Positions 14,260-22,534 of a DNA stretch of 64,000 bases are shown here, piece by piece. Every line of letters starts with the position of its first letter. Within the stretch, counting starts at the first letter, position 1. The position numbers and the translations under genes are program-made. Source of the DNA: an uncultured delta proteobacterium (lineage in GTDB: Bacteria > Desulfobacterota > Binatia > UBA9968); assembly GCA_963840855.1 (NCBI GenBank), contig CAWJBB010000059.1, forward strand, positions 34,990 through 98,989, given 5' to 3'. The notes beneath the pieces were generated by a model. It worked only from the letters and a program-made list of their open reading frames with translations. It searched no databases and was not told where the DNA came from.

Positions 14260-14346
14260 GTTCAAAGTTCAAGGTTCAACGTTCAAAGTTGAAGATTCAA
14301 GATTCCGGATCCGAAACCTTGAACCTTGAACCCGGAACCTTGAACT
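14260..14346. repeat. Heptamer tandem/inverted repeat element between rny and ymdB
   Basis: About 6 GTTCAAN units followed by about 4 inverted ACCTTGA units; can fold into one long hairpin. Confidence 0.85.
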
Positions 14347-15911
14347 TATTTCGCAAAATCCACCGAGCGCATTTCACGAATCACAGTGACTTTGATCTGC
14401 CCCGGATAGGTCATTTCGTTTTCAATCTTGCGCGCCATCTCCCGCGCCATGCGCGCGGCCTCGTCGTCGGAGACGATATCGTGCTGCACCATGACGCGAA
14501 TCTCTCTTCCCGCCTGCACCGCGTAGGACTTCTCCACCCCCTTGAACGAATTGGTGATGCGCTCCAGGTCCTCCAGGCGGCGCACGTAGCTCTCCATCAT
14601 CTCGCGCCGCGCGCCCGGGCGGGCGCCCGATAACGCATCCGCCGCGTCCACGAGAGGCGCCAGGATGGTTTCCGCTTTAACGTCTTCATGGTGCGCCGCG
14701 ATGGCGTTGACGATCTTCGGCGATTCGCCGTACTTGCGCGCCAACTCCGCGCCGATGATCGCGTGGGAACCTTCTACTTCGTGGTCGACGGCCTTGCCGA
14801 TATCGTGCAACAAAGCCGCCCGCCGCGCCTGTTTTTCATTGAGCCCCAACTCCACAGCCATGTGGCCGCAAATAAACGCCGCTTCGATGGAATGGAGCAA
14901 GACATTTTGCGCATAACTGTACCGGTACTTGAGCCGGCCCAAGAGCTTGACGATTTCCGGATGGACGCCGTGAATACCGACATCGAAAATTGCCTTTTGT
15001 CCCGCCTCGCGAATCGATTCGTCGAGTTCTTGCTCAGACTTGCGCACCACCTCTTCGATACGCCCCGGGTGAATACGCCCGTCCGCAACCAATTTCTCCA
15101 GAGACAACCGCGCGACTTCCCGGCGAATCGGATTATGACCCGAAATGACGACCGTCTCCGGCGTGTCGTCCACGATAAGATCGATACCCGTCGCCGCTTC
15201 CAGCGCGCGGATGTTCCGCCCTTCGCGGCCGATGATTTTTCCCTTCAACTCGTCGTTGGGCAGCGGAAATACCGTCACGGAACGTTCCGCGACAAAATCC
15301 CCGGCCAATCTCTCGATGGCCAGCGCAACGATCTTCTGGGCCTTACGCACCGCCTCCTCCTTGGCCCCCTCTTCAATCACGCGAATGCGTTTCGCCGAAT
15401 CATGCTTGGCTTCTTCGGTCATCTCATCGATGAGGCTTTTCTTGGCCTCTTCGCGGGTCATTCCCGCAACCTGCTCGAGCTGCCGGCGGGCTTGATCGAC
15501 CTGTCGAGCGCATTCAACGGCTTGATCTTCAATCGCCTTCTCGCGTGACTTGAGAGCGTTTTCACGCCTGGAAAGCTCTCCTTCACGCTTGTCGACGGAG
15601 TCCACCCGCTTATCGATTAATTCCTCTTTGCCGATCAGCCGCTTCTCCTGGCTCTGCAGCTCCCGGCGTGCCTCTCGAACCTCCTTCTCAAAATCGGCCT
15701 TTCCCCTTAAAACGATATCCTTCGCCTGAATCTCGGCTTCCTTCCTGATGACCGCGGCGTCTTTTTTTGCCTCTTCAATAATTCTGCTGGCGCCTTGCTT
15801 TGCCGATTCCAGTTGTCCCTGACTCTGCTTGCTCCGAATCCAAGTAAAAACCAGCGCCAAAATGACGCCCCCGACCAATCCCGCTAAACCAACTAGCACT
15901 ACTTCATTCAA
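14346..15911 (-). CDS. rny: Ribonuclease Y
   Basis: N-terminal TM, coiled coil, KH domain ([13 protein letters not shown]) and HD domain (LLHDIGK). Confidence 0.97.
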
Positions 15912-15937
15912 TTAAAACACCCCCTTATCTTTACCAA

Positions 15938-16558
15938 TCACTGCGACACTTGCCTCAACGGCGGGTTCGCGGTGTCGCAGTCTATGAGTTTCGTTTCAGT
16001 TACGATGTAATGAACTTTTCGGTCCCATGCCTCGGTGGGCACTTTCTCGACCACTTGAAAATCGTAGGACAGCGCCACCAGGGTGGCTTTGTCGTCCAGG
16101 CGCGCCAGGATTCGATCATACCAGCCTTTTCCTCTTCCCAAGCGATTGCCTGCGGCGTCGAACGCGACCCCGGGGACAAATACAACGAGGTTCTGCCGAT
16201 CCCCATCGGACAACCGCTCCGTACCGGTAGGTTCGAGAATACCGTAGCGGCCGGCACGTAAATCGTCGCCGGATGCGGCGCGAATGAACTGGCCGGCCCC
16301 GCCCGCGCCGGTTCGAGGGTAGAAAACCTTGCGTCCCTCGCTCAGAGCATTCTTGAGGATCTCCTCGGTGTCGACTTCGTTTTCCGCCGGGCTGTACAGC
16401 GCTACCGAACGGGAGGCGGCGTAGGCCGGCAGCTGAAGCGCGCGGGTCTGAATCGCCCGGCTGCGCAGAAGGCATTCATGCTTGGTGAGCGCGTTGCGCT
16501 GGGACAATACCGTTCCGCGCAAAGCGAGCTTCTTCTCTTCGTTAGCCACGCGCCACAT
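15938..16558 (-). CDS. 5-formyltetrahydrofolate cyclo-ligase
   Basis: VPGVAFDAAGNRLGRGKGWYDR signature. Start trimmed to the ATG at 16558 (or GTG at 16549). Confidence 0.92.
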   Translation of the reverse strand: MWRVANEEKKLALRGTVLSQRNALTKHECLLRSRAIQTRALQLPAYAASRSVALYSPAENEVDTEEILKNALSEGRKVFYPRTGAGGAGQFIRAASGDDLRAGRYGILEPTGTERLSDGDRQNLVVFVPGVAFDAAGNRLGRGKGWYDRILARLDDKATLVALSYDFQVVEKVPTEAWDRKVHYIVTETKLIDCDTANPPLRQVSQ

Positions 16559-16600
16559 TGGATTGCACCGCGAGTACGCGTGAGATGAAGAGGAATTTTC

Positions 16601-16816
16601 GGGGAAGGGCTTATCAGCGAAGTGATCTAGACGGGAAACGAGTTGGTCCCCGCGACGACCGCGTTCGACGCGGCTCCAGGAGCGGCACCAAAGTGGTAAA
16701 ACCCAACGGAATTTCCACGACTTTATTAAAACTTCCCAAACGGGTTCGCCACATTCCAATGCTCTTCAAGAACGCAAGAACCCACGCGATCAAATCGTTA
16801 AGTATCGCTTCTCCCC
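16601..16816 (-). ncRNA. ssrS: Probable 6S RNA
   Basis: Conserved position between zapA and the cyclo-ligase gene. The termini GGGGAGAAG...CTTCCCC and internal TGATC/GATCA can pair as a rod. Boundaries approximate. Confidence 0.65.
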
Positions 16817-16915
16817 AATTCCACATCATTCCACGCTGCCTTAATGTGCGGCTTTGCTCCCTCCGCGCGGTTTTGCGAGCGCCGGCATTGAGCAAAGCCA
16901 ACACGGCTCGAACTC

Positions 16916-17194
16916 TCAACCCTCCTCGGTCAAACTTGTCGCTAATCGGCTCGAAATTTGATCCAGTTTGTGCAACATCGACTCATGCGCGTCTTTAAGC
17001 CGATGATACTCATCGGCGATATTGAGCGCCGCCAACATGGCGATATTCGATCTGGCAATGGGTTTCGGCGACTGCAGCAACTCCTGCATTTTGCCATCGA
17101 CATACCCGGCGACCCGTAGCATGTAACCTTCCTCGGCATCGCTGCTGATCGTGAGTTTTTGCCCTAAAATTTCGACATCCAGCGCCTTTTTCAT
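16916..17194 (-). CDS. zapA: Cell division protein ZapA
   Basis: VEILGQ...VAGYVDGKM...AMLAALNIADE. Confidence 0.92.
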   Translation of the reverse strand: MKKALDVEILGQKLTISSDAEEGYMLRVAGYVDGKMQELLQSPKPIARSNIAMLAALNIADEYHRLKDAHESMLHKLDQISSRLATSLTEEG

Positions 17195-17209
17195 TGCCGC
17201 TTCCCCTGA

Positions 17210-17440
17210 TCAGTCAGAGATATCCATACTGGCCAACTGTCCGATGATTTTATTTATCTTTTCCCTGAGCTCAATCCGCTCACGCTCATAGCGCCGTATT
17301 TGCCCTTGTAGATGGTGCCACTCGCTTTCCTTCTCAGCAAGTTTCTTTTCGATGGAAGCTTTTTCCTTCTTCACCCGCTCATGATTTTCGATCAGGCGAT
17401 TAATCGTCCCTTCAAGTTGGTCAATATTGTCGAAAGGCAT
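17210..17440 (-). CDS. ZapB-like coiled-coil protein
   Basis: 76-aa heptad-rich protein directly upstream of zapA. Confidence 0.7.
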   Translation of the reverse strand: MPFDNIDQLEGTINRLIENHERVKKEKASIEKKLAEKESEWHHLQGQIRRYERERIELREKINKIIGQLASMDISD

Positions 17441-17471
17441 CGCTGAACGCACCTCGAAAACTTCATGTTTG

Positions 17472-17500
17472 AGTTTAGTTTTAAGCCCCAGCCTTGTCAA
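17472..17500 (-). promoter_or_regulatory. Promoter of the zap operon
   Basis: TTGACA-17 bp-TAAACT. Confidence 0.7.
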
Positions 17501-17677
17501 GGTGAACTTTAGACCGGTTTTTGAGCGATACACCCGGTTCAAGGTTCAAAGTTCTCAAGGTTTAATGTCTCAATTCTGCACTCAACTGCCGGATGGCGTG
17601 AGGCCGTCGCAGCTCGTCCTTAGATTCTGCGGAAAACCTTAGAATAGTTCGACGACAATGCTCATACTTCGAAAAGC

Positions 17678-17923
17678 TCAATAAAACAGAAAATCTCCAA
17701 TGATTTCAACTGCTCCACTCGTTCCTTCGATTAAACTAGTGACCAGCAAAGTTCCTAAGGACAACGCGCAGATCTGCATAGAGAATAATCCCCAGATGAA
17801 TAATAGTAGTGTTGGTACATCGCCGAACACTCCCAGCATCAACAAGGCTCCGATCCCGCCAAAAATACAAATCCCGTAGTCAAAAACTTCTAACCGGTGC
17901 AATGTATCATTCTCGCTTCGCAA
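17678..17923 (-). CDS. Small hydrophobic hypothetical protein (possible cassette remnant)
   Basis: AT-rich ORF with two hydrophobic stretches, beginning just after the GTTAGGC core of repeat copy A. Confidence 0.35.
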   Translation of the reverse strand: MRSENDTLHRLEVFDYGICIFGGIGALLMLGVFGDVPTLLLFIWGLFSMQICALSLGTLLVTSLIEGTSGAVEIIGDFLFY

Positions 17924-17939
17924 TCTGGCAACAGGCTAT

Positions 17940-18110
17940 GCCTAACCAGAAACGCGGAACAGTATTTGCCGATATTAATATCTGTAAATGCCAAATGCGA
18001 AATCGCTTCCATGAGCGCGGAACTCCGCCCTAGTGTTGGCGACGCGGAATTGTCGGGAGCAATAGTAACTGCATCCCTGACACTGAATCGTTTCTCCCAA
18101 GTCGATGAAG
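17940..18110 (-). repeat. Promoter + attI-like module, copy A
   Basis: Aligns with 22349-22534 and 23562-23748 and ends in GTTAGGC on the minus strand. Confidence 0.75.
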
Positions 18111-18335
18111 AACTGTTGAAATGGTTGGCCTGCACAATTCCCTACGCTGGGCTCAGAGGTCCGAATTCTGATTTCAGGAATGTCGTATCCAAGCACCGCG
18201 TAAAGCGATTGTTTCCACGATTGCAAATAGCAAAAATCTGCCTTGACCCCCAGCTGGCATTCTGGAAGTTGCATTAACGAGCAGGCGTCGCATTTTGACC
18301 GATGCGCGCTCGACTTTCTTTGGTTCAAGGTCGGA

Positions 18336-18365
18336 TTGACACGGACGCGCTATCCGTCGGATAAT
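18336..18365 (+). promoter_or_regulatory. Putative promoter of the 2-TM/TPR operon
   Basis: TTGACA-18 bp-GATAAT, 36 nt upstream of the ATG at 18402. Confidence 0.5.
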
Positions 18366-18401
18366 TCCGGCCAGGCGTGTCAGAGTACATATAGTGTGTA
18401 T

Positions 18402-18791
18402 ATGGAGCCCTGGATTGAAATTGTGACGCACCCGTTGGGTCTCGTCGGGTTTTCGCTTTTCATCGTGTTTTCCCTCCTGGCTCGAATGGGTCCCACCGGT
18501 CGTTGGCCGTGGCTCGCGCCTGCAGCCGTCACCATGGCTTTCATTGCGCTGCTCGGCGGCCTCGGCTTGGCATTCAGGCAAAGCCATCGAACCGCGGTCC
18601 AAGAAAAACCTGATAAGGCGGTCACGGAGAAGTCTGTTGCAAATGGAACCGGCCAGACGCAAGGGCAAGCTCCGCCGGAGCAACCGACGACAATCCAGCA
18701 ACAGACTTCCGGATCGCAAAGTCCCGCCGTCTCCAACATCCAAGGAGACGTAAACATCACGATCCAGGGGAATCAGGAACAAAAACGGTGA
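18402..18791 (+). CDS. Small 2-TM membrane protein with a C-terminal Q/N/G-rich amyloid-like motif
   Basis: Two hydrophobic helices with a basic loop, a low-complexity linker, then TIQQQTSGSQSPAVSNIQGDVNITIQG. The stop overlaps the next start. Confidence 0.8.
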   Translation: MEPWIEIVTHPLGLVGFSLFIVFSLLARMGPTGRWPWLAPAAVTMAFIALLGGLGLAFRQSHRTAVQEKPDKAVTEKSVANGTGQTQGQAPPEQPTTIQQQTSGSQSPAVSNIQGDVNITIQGNQEQKR

Positions 18792-20665
18792 TGAGATTCA
18801 TCGCGTTTTGCTTTTTGACCCTCGCCGCAGTTGCCGCTCGCGCGGCGACATTCGAGCAAACCACGTCGGGCTGGTGCAGTCCCGCCGTCGCCGCGGTTCA
18901 AGGCAAGGTGACGATCGTCTGCAACGGAGTGGACCCGAAAGCTCTCCACCGACTCAACGAGCTGCTAGACAAGAAAGACGTGGAACTCGCCAGGAAGGTT
19001 GCCGAGGCCGAAGAATGGGCCCGCCGATACCGGGAGCTCGAGCAGCGCCTCGCCGACGAGACGAACAACGCCGGGCGGCCCGACCTCGCGGAGCTGCTTG
19101 CCGACGCCCAGCGGAGCCTGAAGGACGGCGATCTGGAAAAAGCGGGCGCCCTGCTCGACCGGTTGATCGAATCGAGCGAAGCCGAAGTCGGGCGCGCCGC
19201 CACCCATCACTACAGCCGCGCTCAGGTCTTCGACCTTCAATTCAAGGCGGCCCAAGCCCTGCCTCATTACGAAAGGGCTCATCGCTATCGCCCCGAGGAT
19301 TTGAAGTACGCATTCGCTTATGCCAACGCGCTGTTCGCTGCCAACCGCTATGCCGAAGCGGAAACCCTCTATATCGATAATGTAAAAAAACTACGGAACC
19401 TGAGCCGCGATGATCCCCAAAAGTATCTCCCCATGCTCGCCGGAAATCTTGGGAACCTCGCTTATCTTCGCGGCGATATGGGGCGCCAAAACGAGGCGGA
19501 GGAAGCGAGCCTGGAGTCTTTGGAGATCCTCCGGGCCCTCGCCGGCGGCGAGCCTTTGTTTCACCTTCCTCTGCTTGCGAAGGGGCTTACGATCCAGGGC
19601 GATCTCTATCAGAGCGTCTTGAGATGGAAGGACGCCGAGGCGGCCTACCAGGAGGCGCTCGACCTTCGCCGCAAGCTGACGACTGCCGATCGTTCGCGTT
19701 ATCTGCCCGAAGTCGCCGATACGCTCAACGCCCTCGGACGTCTTTACCTGACGACCCAGCGCGTCGCCGGCGCGGAAAAAATGTTCGCCGAAGCTTTGGA
19801 TACGTATCAAGCGCTCGCACAGGAAAAACCCGCAGTCTACTTACCCGACTTGACCGAGGCTCTTGGGCAGATGGGACTGCTCTATGTGTACACCCGACGA
19901 TTGGAAGCTGCGGAAAAGAGCTACCGTGAAGCCTACGAGATTCTCACGAAACTGTCGCGGGAAGATCCGGCAGGGTACGAGAGCTCGATGGCATGGATGC
20001 AGCTACAGTTGGGGATCGTATACACCGAAACCCGTCCTGCCGAAGCTGAGCAGGCAATTGCCGAAAGCGTCAAACGTTACCGCAAACTGGCGGATCACAA
20101 CCCCGCAAAATTCTCTCGGGCGGTGGCCATGGCCCTCGAGTTGGTGGGGAGGTCTTACCATAATTCCCAGCGCTTGACTGAAGCCGAGAGCGCCTACGAC
20201 GAATCCCTGAAGATTCGGCGCAAACTGGCGAAGGAAAACCCGCTGGCCAGAATGGAGCTGGCGGGAGTATTGACCCGAGTCGGCGTTCTTTATGCGGCGA
20301 CCCACCGTCGCAATGAGGCGGAGCGGGCGTACAATGAAGCGCTGGCAATTCGACGTCAACTCGACCCTTCCCATTCCGGCCTGCTCGAAGGCCTGGCGGA
20401 TACACTGCACAATCTCGGCGTCCTGCTTTACGAGTTGGGCCGTTGGAATGAATCCGAAAAAGCGCTACGGGAAGCGCTCGAAATTCGCCGCAAACTGGCC
20501 GAAGTCAATCCAGCGGCTAATGTTCCCCACCTGGCCGCGACACTCAAGAGTGCCGGAACTCTTTACCGAGAAACGCAGCGGCCGGATGACGCCGACAAGG
20601 CGTTTGCGGAGGCCGAGGAGATTCTACGAAAGACCGCCAAGCCCCTTGCCTCATCCAGGCCTTAA
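18788..20665 (+). CDS. Secreted tetratricopeptide-repeat protein with an N-terminal amyloid-like motif
   Basis: Signal peptide (MRFIAFCFLTLAAVAARA), the motif TFEQTTSGWCSPAVAAVQGKVTIVCNG, a coiled coil, then many kinesin-light-chain-like TPRs (EALEIRRKLA). Confidence 0.88.
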   Translation: MMRFIAFCFLTLAAVAARAATFEQTTSGWCSPAVAAVQGKVTIVCNGVDPKALHRLNELLDKKDVELARKVAEAEEWARRYRELEQRLADETNNAGRPDLAELLADAQRSLKDGDLEKAGALLDRLIESSEAEVGRAATHHYSRAQVFDLQFKAAQALPHYERAHRYRPEDLKYAFAYANALFAANRYAEAETLYIDNVKKLRNLSRDDPQKYLPMLAGNLGNLAYLRGDMGRQNEAEEASLESLEILRALAGGEPLFHLPLLAKGLTIQGDLYQSVLRWKDAEAAYQEALDLRRKLTTADRSRYLPEVADTLNALGRLYLTTQRVAGAEKMFAEALDTYQALAQEKPAVYLPDLTEALGQMGLLYVYTRRLEAAEKSYREAYEILTKLSREDPAGYESSMAWMQLQLGIVYTETRPAEAEQAIAESVKRYRKLADHNPAKFSRAVAMALELVGRSYHNSQRLTEAESAYDESLKIRRKLAKENPLARMELAGVLTRVGVLYAATHRRNEAERAYNEALAIRRQLDPSHSGLLEGLADTLHNLGVLLYELGRWNESEKALREALEIRRKLAEVNPAANVPHLAATLKSAGTLYRETQRPDDADKAFAEAEEILRKTAKPLASSRP

Positions 20666-20823
20666 CTGCCCCATTTCTTAGCGAAGGGACACGCCTTCGA
20701 ACCAAGGAAGGAGCTTCTGCGGGATGTGTACGCGGGGCATGCTTCGTCGAATCCTAAGCACTAAGCAGCACGGTACCGACGCTCCTTGAATTACCTCAAC
20801 ATAGCAGCGTCTGATTGCGAGCG

Positions 20824-20853
20824 GGCTAACGATCTTGCAACCGCGTGTCGGGC
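20824..20853 (-). other. Collapsed attC-like site
   Basis: GCCCGAC-ACGCGGTTGCAAGATC-GTTAGCC: the typical left and right arms with the centre deleted, at the end of the ORF. Confidence 0.5.
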
Positions 20854-21209
20854 AGTTGCGCTGAATCGTCATCCTCTTGGTCGCGCAGGAACGCAAGGTG
20901 CACTCGGAGCATCTCGATGGCGTCGGCGCCGGCTTCCTCCTCGGTGATCAACCCGCGGTGAATGGCATGGGCAACCGCAAAGTCGAGGTTCGAATGGTCA
21001 TAAACTGAGAAGAGTTTCCGAGCAGGTCCTTGATGAAAGCGATGAATGTGGTCTGAGAGCTCGTAGGCATCGATTTCGCCAGCGCGCCATCGCCCGAACT
21101 CGGTCTCGAGTTTCGAGAGCTCAGCGGAGAGGTCCCGTTCGTAAGCGACCGCGCCCAGCTCGCGAAGCCTTCGGCGTTGCGCTTTCGAGAACTCGCGGTT
21201 GGTCTTCAT
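20826..21209 (-). CDS. Hypothetical protein (gene cassette)
   Basis: MKTNREFSKAQRRRLRELGAVAYERDL starts 17 nt after an attC core. Confidence 0.75.
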   Translation of the reverse strand: MKTNREFSKAQRRRLRELGAVAYERDLSAELSKLETEFGRWRAGEIDAYELSDHIHRFHQGPARKLFSVYDHSNLDFAVAHAIHRGLITEEEAGADAIEMLRVHLAFLRDQEDDDSAQLPDTRLQDR

Positions 21210-21225
21210 TCCCTGGCTCCAAGCT

Positions 21226-21289
21226 GTCCAACGTTCATCGTGAACGGCGCGCCGCTCGCGGAGCGGCCGTTTCGACGGTGCTGTTAGAT
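21226..21289 (-). other. Integron attC site
   Basis: 64-bp imperfect palindrome ATCTAAC (RYYYAAC) ... GCCGCTCCGCGAGCGGC ... GTTGGAC (GTTRRRY) lying between two co-oriented short ORFs. Confidence 0.8.
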
Positions 21290-21633
21290 CGCGACGGAAT
21301 TGCCCGAAACGACGAATCGTCGCCAAGATGAAAGTAAAGATGACCGTAAAGCTCGCCGCCTCTTAAGACGGCCCAGCCTCGGCCGGATACGGGATCCATT
21401 TCATCGTTCCCCAACCATGAAAACTCGACACGGTATTCTCCGCGGAATTCTTCCACGCGGCAGTCAAGTTCGCCATGTACTGCCCCGAAATGAAACTCGC
21501 CGTTACCGCCTTTCGAAAAGTCGATGTAGCCCGGACCTTCAAGATCAATGAACTCCCGGTCCCATTGCTCCATCTCAATGATGCGCCATCGTCCGAGAAA
21601 AAGATTGCTAGATTTCTTCACGCGCGTAGGCAT
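21235..21633 (-). CDS. Hypothetical beta-rich protein (gene cassette)
   Basis: FLGRWRIIEMEQWD...GNDEMDPVSGRGWA. It is preceded by an attC right-arm-like sequence (about 21647-21664) and reads into the attC. Confidence 0.75.
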   Translation of the reverse strand: MPTRVKKSSNLFLGRWRIIEMEQWDREFIDLEGPGYIDFSKGGNGEFHFGAVHGELDCRVEEFRGEYRVEFSWLGNDEMDPVSGRGWAVLRGGELYGHLYFHLGDDSSFRAIPSRSNSTVETAAPRAARRSR

Positions 21634-21738: not shown

Positions 21739-21990
21739 CTACTGTTTCGCGAGCGGCTGCTTCTTGCCGACTGACACCTTCTTCAGCTGGATTACCAACC
21801 GCAAGGCTTCGTTCACCGCTTCGGCGTCATTTGCAAAAGCCTTGGCCACATCCGGTGCCAATAGGACTAGGTTCGTCCCAGCCCGATACCGCTCGGCGTA
21901 CTTGCCTCTGACTCCATCCTTGAGCAGCTCGTGCAAATCATATTCGGGACGTAGCTCGTCGTCGATCTCACTTTTTCGTTTCTTCTTCAT
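21739..21990 (-). CDS. BrnA-like antitoxin
   Basis: DELRPEYD...GVRGKY...PDVAKAF...AVNEALR; overlaps the toxin gene. Confidence 0.8.
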   Translation of the reverse strand: MKKKRKSEIDDELRPEYDLHELLKDGVRGKYAERYRAGTNLVLLAPDVAKAFANDAEAVNEALRLVIQLKKVSVGKKQPLAKQ

Positions 21991-22249
21991 AAGCTTTTCT
22001 TTCAGCCCGAGTTAGCTCCCGTGCGCTAATAAGACGAATCCGTTCCCCACGCTCCGTATGGGCTACCATCACCAGACGGCCGCGCCTGGACATTCCTACG
22101 GTGATGTATCGGTCCTCTGCTAGCGAGTGGTCTGGGTCAGGCACAGTAGTCCCGAGTAAATCGCCGAAAACCGTCGCCGCCTCGTTGAATGAGATCCTAT
22201 GGTTGCGAACGTTCTTCGCGGCCTTTTTTGGATCCCACTCGAATTCCAC
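21968..22249 (-). CDS. BrnT-family (DUF497) toxin
   Basis: FEWDPKKAAKNVRNHRISFNEA...HSLAEDRY...IRLISAR. Confidence 0.9.
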   Translation of the reverse strand: MEFEWDPKKAAKNVRNHRISFNEAATVFGDLLGTTVPDPDHSLAEDRYITVGMSRRGRLVMVAHTERGERIRLISARELTRAERKAYEEETKK

Positions 22250-22348
22250 TGGCAAAACGTAGCAGCTCCTGTCCTGTTTCGAAAGTCTACCATAAGTCGC
22301 GGAACCGCACCCCGCAGTTATCACGCGCGTTTGACACGCGCAGGAGTG

Positions 22349-22534
22349 AGCTAACCAGCAATATAAGGAACGGTGTTCTCCGATTCTAATATCTGTAAAT
22401 ACCGAATGCAAAACCGCTTCCATGATCGCGGAATTCAGGCCTGATGGCGGCGACCGGAACTGGTCGCGAGCAATAGTAACTGAATTTTTGAAACCAATAA
22501 TTTACTCTGGTTCGAACCCACGTCGATGTGTGAG
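22349..22534 (-). repeat. Promoter + attI-like module, copy B
   Basis: Contains TTGCAT-17-TAGAAT (22411-22383) and ends ...ATATTGCTG-GTTAGCT. Confidence 0.8.

What the first reader, a model, noticed from the sequence alone, without database searches (positions are those of the whole stretch)
18402..20665. Candidate periplasmic amyloid/RHIM-like signalling pair: a 2-TM protein and a secreted TPR protein share one motif
Seen: two overlapping genes. The small protein ends in TIQQQTSGSQSPAVSNIQGDVNITIQG (about 18690-18770). The TPR protein begins, right after its signal peptide, with TFEQTTSGWCSPAVAAVQGKVTIVCNG (about 18848-18928). 14 of 27 residues are identical without gaps, and the proteins are otherwise unrelated. 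Established: fungal and bacterial NLR amyloid signalling (HET-s/NWD2, BASS and RHIM-like motifs) uses this layout, with the motif at the effector C-terminus and the adjacent repeat-receptor N-terminus. Different here: no NTPase domain, the receptor is exported, and the positive-inside rule puts the effector motif outside the cytoplasm. Two Cys replace Q and I in the receptor copy and could disulfide-lock the fold. Inference: a TPR sensor oligomerising through its coiled coil templates assembly of a membrane effector for pore formation or signalling. Its location among TA and nuclease genes suggests defence.
Basis: partly seen in the sequence, partly recalled or inferred. Interest (0 to 1): 0.88.

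Follow-up and report, generated by a model that had tools for sequence, protein, structure and literature searches.

The report
Paired periplasmic motif linking two proteins
A small membrane protein and the exported repeat protein encoded right after it carry the same short, co-evolving sequence on the outer side of the cell membrane, which looks like a new docking or signalling device in soil bacteria.

Summary
The 2-TM ORF S (18402-18791) ends with a 27-residue motif that recurs at the mature N-terminus of the overlapping TPR ORF D (18788-20665): 14/27 identical, E 2e-5. It is not a recent duplication. The pairing is conserved: 64 of 75 assessable related loci have a D module directly downstream of S, and 1 has it upstream. 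The motif copies co-vary within pairs, and the family profiles match at E 1.1e-9. D belongs to an unannotated family of 578 cluster representatives: signal peptide, motif bracketed by two near-invariant Cys, coiled coil, TPR_10/12. Charge counts place the S motif in the periplasm too. There is no NTPase, no conserved third gene and no PADLOC hit. The cassette is rare and missing at the syntenic site of a same-genus genome. My reading is a periplasmic homotypic adaptor coupling a TPR protein to a membrane hairpin. Amyloid-like templating is possible but untested. RHIM membership is not met. The defence role is unsupported.

The parts
18336..18365 (+). sigma-70-like promoter (TTGACA-18-GATAAT, 11 of 12), 37 nt before the S start
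   Evidence: This is a consensus match only: 2 sites were found against a shuffle mean of 1.4.
18402..18791 (+). S: 129-aa two-TM helical-hairpin protein with a C-terminal motif
   Evidence: There are 7 homologues in the word-indexed search and 85 related loci. The start M-x-[ED]-W is shared with homologues; GTG 18396 is an alternative start (P0001).
18432..18482 (+). S TM1 (PLGLVGFSLFIVFSLLA), the most conserved stretch of the family
   Evidence: Alignments; segmentation.
18483..18521 (+). S inter-helix loop, predicted cytoplasmic (basic in the family)
   Evidence: Over 68 S proteins the loop has a mean of 4.65 K/R, against 0.97 in the N-tail and 1.85 in the 15 residues after TM2. The window's own loop has only 2 Arg.
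18522..18575 (+). S TM2 (AAVTMAFIALLGGLGLAF)
   Evidence: hydropathy window.
18576..18689 (+). S linker, variable and rich in P, Q, A and T
18690..18770 (+). S-type motif TIQQQTSGSQSPAVSNIQGDVNITIQG
18788..20665 (+). D: exported TPR protein (625 aa from GTG 18788, 624 aa from ATG 18791); its start overlaps the S stop
18791..18847 (+). D signal peptide (MRFIAFCFLTLAAVAARAA, with A-R-A before the motif)
   Evidence: Sequence. Family-wide n/h/c pattern. In the 150 best representatives the module starts at median residue 21. No dedicated signal-peptide predictor was available.
18848..18928 (+). D-type motif TFEQTTSGWCSPAVAAVQGKVTIVCNG; Cys29 at 18875-18877 and Cys44 at 18920-18922
   Evidence: Both Cys are invariant in 28 and in 94 aligned D proteins. 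148 of 150 representatives have at least 2 Cys here. AF2 places strands at 29-33 and 40-44, with pLDDT 57-62.
18935..19174 (+). D conserved helical/coiled-coil region (GVDPKALHRLNELL..., EEWARRYRELEQRL...)
   Evidence: helices 49-62, 66-92, 97-111, 115-128.
19187..20650 (+). D TPR superhelix (TPR_10/TPR_12)
   Evidence: only generic TPR structures match.
17549..20876 (.). Segment holding the cassette that is absent at the syntenic site of same-genus genome G002, where about 570 bp stand instead
   Evidence: No flanking repeats were seen.

Best explanation
S and D form a self-contained two-gene cassette. S is an inner-membrane helical hairpin with N-out, C-out topology. It exposes to the periplasm a flexible linker and a motif of about 25 residues that can form a beta-hairpin. 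D is Sec-exported. After signal-peptide cleavage its N-terminus is a copy of the same motif closed by a disulfide, followed by a coiled coil and a TPR_10/12 superhelix. The two motif copies act as a homotypic adaptor: they pair directly, strand to strand, in the periplasm. This docks the TPR protein, which probably oligomerises through its coiled coil, onto several membrane hairpins in a defined hetero-oligomer. Binding of a ligand or partner by the TPR domain would then be coupled to the conserved transmembrane part of S. Shown here: the pairing, its conservation, the co-variation, the predicted shared compartment, and independence from other genes. Inferred: direct binding, stoichiometry, and what the TPR domain senses.
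For: The motif similarity is significant for the pair and for the family profiles. In 64 of 75 assessable loci a D module follows S directly, and in 1 it precedes S (the HMMs were built from part of these loci). The genes overlap by 4 or 1 nt or are a few nt apart in most loci. RNA-library contigs from two studies bridge the junction. Cognate S/D motif scores average 59.2 against 44.9 for non-cognate pairs among 39 non-redundant pairs, and 0 of 10000 permutations reach the observed sum. Subfamily-specific changes are shared by both partners, such as loss of SP or an AVNAAGVQGG variant. Identical residues use the same codon no more often in cognate pairs (182/498) than in non-cognate pairs (958/2566), so the co-variation is not gene conversion. 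Both copies are predicted to lie in the same compartment. D shows signal-peptide features and two near-invariant Cys. The S loop is basic. In 5 loci (L013, L038, L041, L057, L066) S has its own Cys pair around the motif. Natural single chains carry S-type and D-type copies together: P0008/P0184, P0096, P0170, and by eye P0081, P0112, P0144 and P0176. AF2 models the D motif as a hairpin with the Cys at the strand ends. No third gene is conserved nearby.
Against: No binding was shown. The D-motif hairpin has only pLDDT 57-62. Ten assessable loci have an S-like gene without D. In four of them (L019/L027, L053/L056) the motif is followed by another domain in the same chain, so the motif can work without a D partner. 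For the 578 D-module representatives the upstream gene could not be inspected, so D may often lack S. Topology rests on charge counts and hydropathy only, and the window's own S loop has just 2 Arg. The strong conservation of TM1 is more than a passive anchor needs.
Confidence: 0.45

Rival explanations
1. Extracytoplasmic amyloid-like signalling. The TPR protein oligomerises on a cue. Its disulfide-locked motif then nucleates a cross-beta stack that recruits and converts the S motif, which clusters the S hairpins into a pore or a signal.
For: The layout matches BASS and Bab/Agp pairs. The motif is about 25 residues long and sits at the C-terminus of a small membrane-targeting protein and the N-terminus of a repeat protein. 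The genes are collinear and often overlap (Dyrka 2020 sections 7 and 9; Ibarlosa 2024 section 4). Agp is also a TPR protein without a NOD NTPase. The composition is rich in V, Q, G, T, S and N and poor in K and L, as reported for BASS. The motif is duplicated on the small-protein side in P0004 and occurs three times in P0008/P0184, like the pseudorepeats of BASS1/6 and HET-s. Partners co-vary. TM1 is strongly conserved, has small residues, and an acidic residue sits at position 2-3. The distribution is sporadic and accessory.
Against: A conserved Pro sits in the motif centre, whereas BASS are reported as depleted in P. A disulfide-closed hairpin looks like a stably folded element, not a switch. 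There is no NTPase and no ATP in the periplasm to drive oligomerisation. In some S variants the motif is internal, with a domain after it. No known amyloid-motif family matched S at E up to 1 in Pfam.
Confidence: 0.25
2. The two motifs do not touch each other. Each binds the same third component, for example an envelope polymer, an outer-membrane protein or a processing enzyme. The shared motif would then be a common address tag.
For: D-type motifs head many exported proteins with other domains: adenosine deaminase in L063, alpha/beta-hydrolase-like P0065, the 199-aa protein in L100, and parvulin PPIase in 2 of 87. S-type motifs occur on other membrane anchors (P0026, P0030). Some S genes lack a D partner.
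Against: A common invariant target does not explain the lineage-specific co-variation, including shared indels, of the two adjacent copies. No third gene is conserved beside the pair.
Confidence: 0.12
3. The similarity is a chance match or a leftover of a local duplication without function.
For: The motif is short and of biased composition. A 12-nt identical run exists.
Against: The similarity gives E 2e-5 for the pair and 1.1e-9 for the profiles. It is conserved across 65 loci with distinct S-type and D-type signatures. DNA identity is only 49/81, and there is no excess of shared codons.
Confidence: 0.02

Closest known systems
Bell/NLR gene pairs with bacterial amyloid signalling sequences, BASS1-10 (Dyrka et al. 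2020, bioRxiv 10.1101/2020.01.06.895854; I read the abstract and sections 6, 7 and 9)
   Same: A motif of about 25 residues is shared by the C-terminus of a small membrane-targeting protein and the N-terminus of the repeat protein encoded next to it. The genes are collinear and often overlap. The composition is rich in Q, N, G and V. Pseudorepeats occur on the small-protein side.
   Different: There is no Bell domain and no NB-ARC/NACHT. Both partners are predicted to be extracytoplasmic. The receptor copy is bracketed by two Cys and has a conserved Pro. The taxa are mostly Acidobacteriota from soil, not Actinobacteria or Cyanobacteria. That paper never uses the terms 'signal peptide', 'periplasm', 'disulfide' or 'Acidobacteria'.
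Bab/Agp antiphage system with BASS11 (Ibarlosa et al. 2024, bioRxiv 10.1101/2024.11.07.622273; I read the abstract and section 4)
   Same: The receptor is a TPR protein without a NOD NTPase. The small partner has a hydrophobic N-terminal helix and a C-terminal motif. The genes are adjacent.
   Different: Agp carries GreA/B-C and PIN domains and acts in the cytoplasm. Bab is a helical bundle, not a constitutive 2-TM hairpin. No sequence comparison with Bab/Agp was made here.
Effector-associated domains (EADs) and the EACC1-caspase two-gene membrane system (Kaur et al. 2020, eLife, PMC7159879; I read passages found by term search)
   Same: Homotypic adaptors are present in two adjacent gene products, and the adjacent copies are closest to each other. 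A 5' small protein has a strongly conserved TM segment rich in small residues, and a 3' larger protein follows. Caspase-like proteins are among the carriers (P0008/P0184 here).
   Different: EADs are domains, not 25-residue strands. EACC1 is described there with a single TM helix. S matched no Pfam family above cut-off. Those systems are described as cytoplasmic or NTP-dependent.
Curli CsgB/CsgA nucleation (recalled, no call)
   Same: An extracytoplasmic templated beta-assembly is nucleated by a cell-bound protein that carries a related repeat.
   Different: Curli subunits are multi-repeat fibre proteins with a dedicated secretion machine. Here each partner has one short motif, plus a TPR domain.
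Periplasmic coiled-coil plus TPR proteins such as CpoB/YbgF (recalled, no call)
   Same: The order is signal peptide, N-terminal coiled coil, then TPR domain in the periplasm.
   Different: There is no Cys-bracketed N-terminal motif and no motif-sharing membrane partner. No NCBIfam model reached its cut-off for D.

Membership tests
Amyloid signalling pairs (BASS / HET-s type) | The same short motif at the effector C-terminus and the receptor N-terminus, encoded by adjacent collinear genes | tested here: met
Amyloid signalling pairs (BASS / HET-s type) | Receptor has NLR architecture (NB-ARC/NACHT plus repeats) | tested here: not met
   Only TPR families were found in D. 26 of 28 and 82 of 87 relatives carry TPR families and none of the 25 most common families listed is an NTPase. 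Agp shows that this feature is not universal.
Amyloid signalling pairs (BASS / HET-s type) | Effector is a Bell/HeLo-type helical bundle or another death/immune domain | tested here: not met
   S has no Pfam family above cut-off. It is a 2-TM hairpin. No Bell model was on hand.
Amyloid signalling pairs (BASS / HET-s type) | Motif forms amyloid fibrils and propagates as a prion; the receptor copy seeds the effector copy | not testable with these tools
   This needs peptides and ThT, EM or cross-seeding assays.
Amyloid signalling pairs (BASS / HET-s type) | Composition enriched in Q, N, G, V, I and depleted in K, P, L (Dyrka 2020, section 9) | tested here: inconclusive
   The S motif has V 15.7, Q 15.4, G 15.1, N 7.9, K 1.6 and L 0.7 %, but P is 4.3 % and at a conserved position.
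RHIM | Core tetrad [IV]-Q-[IVL]-G (recalled) | tested here: not met
   S reads N-I-Q-G-D and D reads A-V-Q-G-K. No RHIM family hit in Pfam at E up to 1.
TPR proteins (TPR_10/TPR_12) | Match to the Pfam TPR models above gathering score | tested here: met
   TPR_12 at E 1.3e-34 and TPR_10 at E 8.6e-28. AF2 gives an all-helical superhelix with pLDDT 90.7.
Sec-exported proteins | N-terminal n/h/c signal peptide with small residues at -3 and -1 | tested here: met
   By eye and hydropathy only. 121 of the 133 representatives whose module starts within 40 residues have a hydrophobic stretch before it. No SignalP-type tool was available.
Holins | Match to a holin family above cut-off | tested here: not met
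   Phage_holin_3_6 scores 16.3 bits, E 0.01, against a cut-off of 28.4.
Known anti-phage defence systems (PADLOC 2.0) | Match of S or D to a PADLOC model | tested here: not met
   S has none. D has one 15.6-bit hit with no stretch that passes on its own.
EACC1-caspase two-gene system | 5' EACC1 domain with a single conserved TM helix, then a 3' caspase-fused protein | tested here: not met
   S has two hydrophobic segments and no Pfam hit above cut-off. D has no caspase. Whether Pfam holds an EACC1 model is recalled, not checked.

The most novel reading that the evidence does not exclude
This would be the first amyloid-signalling-type system that works outside the cytoplasm. A periplasmic TPR sensor carries a disulfide-locked beta-arch that nucleates a cross-beta stack of the matching motif on a two-TM effector. 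The stack clusters the effector hairpins into a pore or an envelope signal, with no NTPase. The same adaptor would also recruit exported caspase-like, deaminase and hydrolase domains.
Probability: 0.25. Interest if true: 0.9.

Novelty: new variant of a known kind. Interest (0 to 1): 0.74.

Why it matters
Motifs shared by adjacent gene products are the hallmark of amyloid signalling and of EAD-type adaptor coupling. So far both have been described for cytoplasmic immune and cell-death systems. Here the same logic appears in proteins that are predicted to be exported, with a conserved disulfide in one copy and no NTPase.

The receptor-side module heads a large family (578 cluster representatives) with no Pfam or NCBIfam hit to the module itself. 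If the motifs pair directly, this gives a compact, specific and evolvable docking device for the periplasm. It also gives a testable case for whether templated beta-assembly can carry a signal across the envelope.

If it is only a tether, it still names the partner and the topology of an abundant class of 'hypothetical TPR proteins' from soil bacteria.

Tried and rejected
- **Complex prediction** on the D module (A4) with the S tail (A5) returned 'no answer' (score 0.03). It counts neither for nor against binding.
- **AF2 of the natural tandem protein P0170** (A11) left the S-type motif at pLDDT below 55. It says nothing on how the two motif types pack.
- **Foldseek** of the D model against the PDB gave only generic TPR superhelices.
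- **The ESM Atlas search** gave scores of 0.80 or less, so these are leads only.
- **tblastn** of the D module against plasmids found no match.
- **Rfam** found nothing at gathering score in 15500-21500.
- **The repeat finder** showed no repeats flanking the inserted segment, only TPR periodicity.
- **The listing of cluster members** gave only generic names.
- **Strict regexes** missed variant motifs and one was miswritten. This was corrected.
- **A search for a conserved third gene** found none beyond redundant contigs.
- **The last protein search** found one homologue of P0008.
- **Genome tallies** scored at most 19 first-look candidates per genome, so the rarity may be overstated.
- **RNA-library contigs** can contain DNA, and parts without cover mean nothing.
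Full report
**1. The observation**

The window holds two overlapping + strand ORFs. S runs 18402-18791 and encodes 129 aa. D runs 18788 (GTG) or 18791 (ATG) to 20665 and encodes 625 or 624 aa. The S stop TGA at 18789-18791 overlaps the D start.

S ends with TIQQQTSGSQSPAVSNIQGDVNITIQG followed by NQEQKR. After a hydrophobic leader (MMRFIAFCFLTLAAVAARAA), D reads TFEQTTSGWCSPAVAAVQGKVTIVCNG. BLASTP aligns the two stretches without gaps, 14/27 identical, E 2e-5, and finds nothing else in common.

The coding DNA is 49/81 identical. Six-frame regex scans of the whole 7.1-Mb assembly find the motif only at these two places. Pfam sees only TPR families in D (TPR_12 at E 1.3e-34) and nothing above cut-off in S. 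NCBIfam and PADLOC add nothing.

**2. The pairing is conserved**

The word-indexed protein search gave 7 S homologues, all with the motif, and one (P0004) with two copies. Scans of genome and metagenome contigs gave 85 related loci, L009-L093. The named ones are Acidobacteriota MAGs, plus one labelled Nitrospinota.

I ran HMMs built from the S alignment and from the D-module alignment A4 over all six frames of the 86 loci, window included:

| Outcome | Loci |
|---|---|
| D module starts within 400 nt after S on the same strand | 64 |
| D directly upstream of S (L055) | 1 |
| No D although at least 330 nt follow S | 10 |
| Locus ends too soon to tell | 11 |

The HMMs were built from part of these same loci, which favours detection. 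The earlier regex scan already showed the pairs without them.

The 10 loci without D fall into four groups:
- Two kinds of S with an extra C-terminal domain after the motif (L019/L027, L053/L056).
- Two degenerate S genes (L087, L090).
- Three distant S-like genes without the motif (L083, L089, L092).
- One intact S (L020).

In most pairs the D start overlaps the S stop by 4 or 1 nt, or lies within a few nt.

**3. The two copies are separate lineages that co-evolve**

The S-type consensus is QxTxGxGSPNVQGVQGDVTITVDQS. The D-type consensus is QxSSGWCSPNIANVxGNVTVNCIGVDP. The profile of 48 S tails matches the profile of 44 D modules with probability 96.4% and E 1.1e-9 over 24 columns.

Among 39 non-redundant pairs the cognate S-tail/D-N-terminus score averages 59.2, against 44.9 for non-cognate combinations. 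None of 10000 permutations reaches the observed sum. One of the 39 pairs, L089, is AT-rich low-complexity sequence and doubtful.

Subfamily changes are shared by both partners:
- The SP dipeptide is lost in both copies in L011, L012 and L085.
- An AVNAAGVQGG-type variant with an extra residue appears in both copies in L039, L051, L061, L062, L064 and L073.
- L093 has NSPxSxAV in both copies and no Cys pair.

If the copies had diverged independently since an old duplication, a cognate excess would not be expected.

The excess is not gene conversion. At aligned identical residues the same codon is used in 182/498 cognate positions and in 958/2566 non-cognate positions. These are 36.5% and 37.3% (36 pairs, each compared with 6 random non-cognates).

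**4. Both copies are predicted to be periplasmic**

The D proteins start with a short basic or neutral n-region, a hydrophobic core of 10-15 residues and small residues before a Q-rich mature end, such as ...ALA|QQ.

The A4 profile, searched against 1.84 billion representatives, finds 578 proteins at E up to 1e-3 and 286 at E up to 1e-10. In the best 150:
- The module starts at median residue 21.
- 133 start within 40 residues, and 121 of these have a hydrophobic stretch before the module.
- 148 have at least two Cys in the first 35 residues of the module.

The two Cys are invariant in alignments of 28 and 94 D proteins.

For S, counts over 68 family members give 4.65 K/R in the loop between the helices, 0.97 in the N-tail and 1.85 in the 15 residues after TM2. 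By the positive-inside rule this puts the loop in the cytoplasm and the C-terminal motif outside. The window's own loop has only two Arg, so the call rests on the family.

In 5 loci (L013, L038, L041, L057, L066) S carries its own Cys pair around the motif. This also fits an oxidising compartment. No dedicated signal-peptide or topology predictor was available.

**5. Architecture and relatives of D**

AF2 with a 94-row alignment gives mean pLDDT 90.7. The model has a leader helix, a hairpin with strands 29-33 and 40-44 that begin and end at the two Cys, four helices to residue 128, and then a TPR superhelix. The blocks covering residues 21-40 have pLDDT of only 57-62. The PDB returns only generic TPR matches.

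TPR_10/12 are present in 26 of the 28 complete D proteins of the loci. TPR_12 is present in 82 of 87 representatives of 300 aa or more, and 2 of these carry a parvulin PPIase.

Exceptions show that the module is portable:
- L063 D is motif plus adenosine deaminase.
- P0065 has a hydrolase-like N-terminal part (by eye).
- L100 is a 199-aa exported protein with another C-terminal part.

**6. Natural fusions**

P0184 (695 aa, with a leader) and P0008 have a caspase domain. The Pfam Peptidase_C14 match (E 4.7e-8) was obtained for P0008, and P0184 is its homologue. They carry three motif copies in a row. The last copy is D-type with C...C and GV..A..L, and a further domain follows.

P0096 has a D-type module at its N-terminus and an S-type motif at its C-terminus. 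P0170 has an S-type motif 20 residues before its D-type motif. By eye, P0081, P0112, P0144 and P0176 do the same. P0034 and P0181 have two D modules.

Such single-chain combinations argue that the two motif types work together physically.

**7. Context**

- Upstream lie RNase Y, 5-FTHF cyclo-ligase, ZapA and a ZapB-like gene. Downstream lie unknown ORFs, a BrnT toxin and a sub-threshold Mrr hit.
- Related loci share no other gene.
- A sigma-70-like site sits 37 nt before S.
- GC and GC3 do not stand out.
- RNase Y is 93% identical in same-genus genome G002. There the DNA aligns up to window 17548 and resumes at 20877 after about 570 bp, so the cassette is absent at that site.
- The module was found in 1 of 301 genomes of the window's phylum (only G000) and in 2 of 301 of the phylum of G340, a MAG titled Acidobacteriaceae. 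At most 19 candidates per genome were scored.
- With S as query, none of 40 relatives gave more than a weak match to the TM part.
- Contigs from RNA libraries of two studies bridge the S/D junction (X15 record 2, X18 record 12). This fits a bicistronic transcript but does not prove one.

**8. Mechanism**

The facts above fit a homotypic adaptor. The two copies pair strand to strand in the periplasm and couple the TPR protein to the membrane hairpin.

I favour a defined hetero-oligomer (0.45) over triggered amyloid-like templating (0.25), for three reasons:
- The receptor copy looks like a stably folded, disulfide-closed hairpin with a conserved Pro.
- Nothing like a NOD is there to drive assembly.
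- The motif can be internal.

The amyloid reading keeps real support:
- The layout, overlap, composition and pseudorepeats match what is reported for BASS pairs.
- Agp shows a TPR receptor without a NOD NTPase.
- TM1 of S is far more conserved than an anchor needs.

A common third target (0.12) does not explain the co-variation. Chance or a duplication remnant (0.02) is contradicted by the data.

**9. Comparison and novelty**

The closest described kinds are BASS/Bell-NLR pairs, Bab/Agp, and EAD coupling with the EACC1-caspase pair. Membership in BASS, RHIM, EACC1 and PADLOC systems fails on tested features.

The literature searches and the term searches within three papers found no exported or periplasmic motif pair of this kind. 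Supplements were not seen.

I rate it a new variant of a known kind: adaptor-motif coupling moved to the periplasm, disulfide-locked and without an NTPase.

Noticed in passing
P0184 and P0008 (metagenome proteins): A caspase-domain protein (Pfam Peptidase_C14 match obtained for P0008; P0184 is its 695-aa full-length homologue with a leader peptide) carries three tandem copies of the motif, the last one Cys-bracketed, and an unknown C-terminal domain. It looks like an all-in-one relative of the S/D pair.
   Followed up: partly
L063:2954-4588: Here the partner downstream of S is not a TPR protein. It has a signal peptide, the motif and an adenosine deaminase domain (Pfam E 1e-17). The same domain matches the ADA part of a PADLOC CARF_ADA model (E 6.4e-17).
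   Followed up: partly
L019:5898-6638 and L053:87-1034 (also L027, L056): These are S variants in which the motif is followed by an extra domain of 130-200 residues without a Pfam match. No D gene follows.
   Followed up: partly
P0096 (189 aa): A small exported protein with a D-type module at the N-terminus and an S-type motif at the C-terminus. In principle this layout could assemble head to tail.
   Followed up: no
window 21739-22423 (-): A BrnT toxin domain (E 5.4e-26) lies in an ORF that overlaps a preceding 83-aa ORF. This is probably a BrnT/BrnA toxin-antitoxin pair.
   Followed up: partly
window 14346-17542 (-): A housekeeping block of RNase Y, 5-formyl-THF cyclo-ligase, ZapA and a ZapB-like coiled coil. 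No Rfam family, for example 6S RNA, reached gathering score between them. In E. coli, ssrS lies between zapA and the cyclo-ligase gene (recalled).
   Followed up: partly
L100 (G340:C16:385619-388750): A second, unlinked exported 199-aa protein in the genome of L009. It begins with a D-type Cys-bracketed motif but has a different, unannotated C-terminal part.
   Followed up: no
L036:5756-6222: A second D-type gene follows the first D gene in tandem, so one S has two candidate partners.
   Followed up: no
G000 as a whole: The assembly is rated 94% complete with 8.3% contamination. The contig with the window does belong to the lineage, since RNase Y is 93% identical and syntenic in a same-genus genome.
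   Followed up: yes
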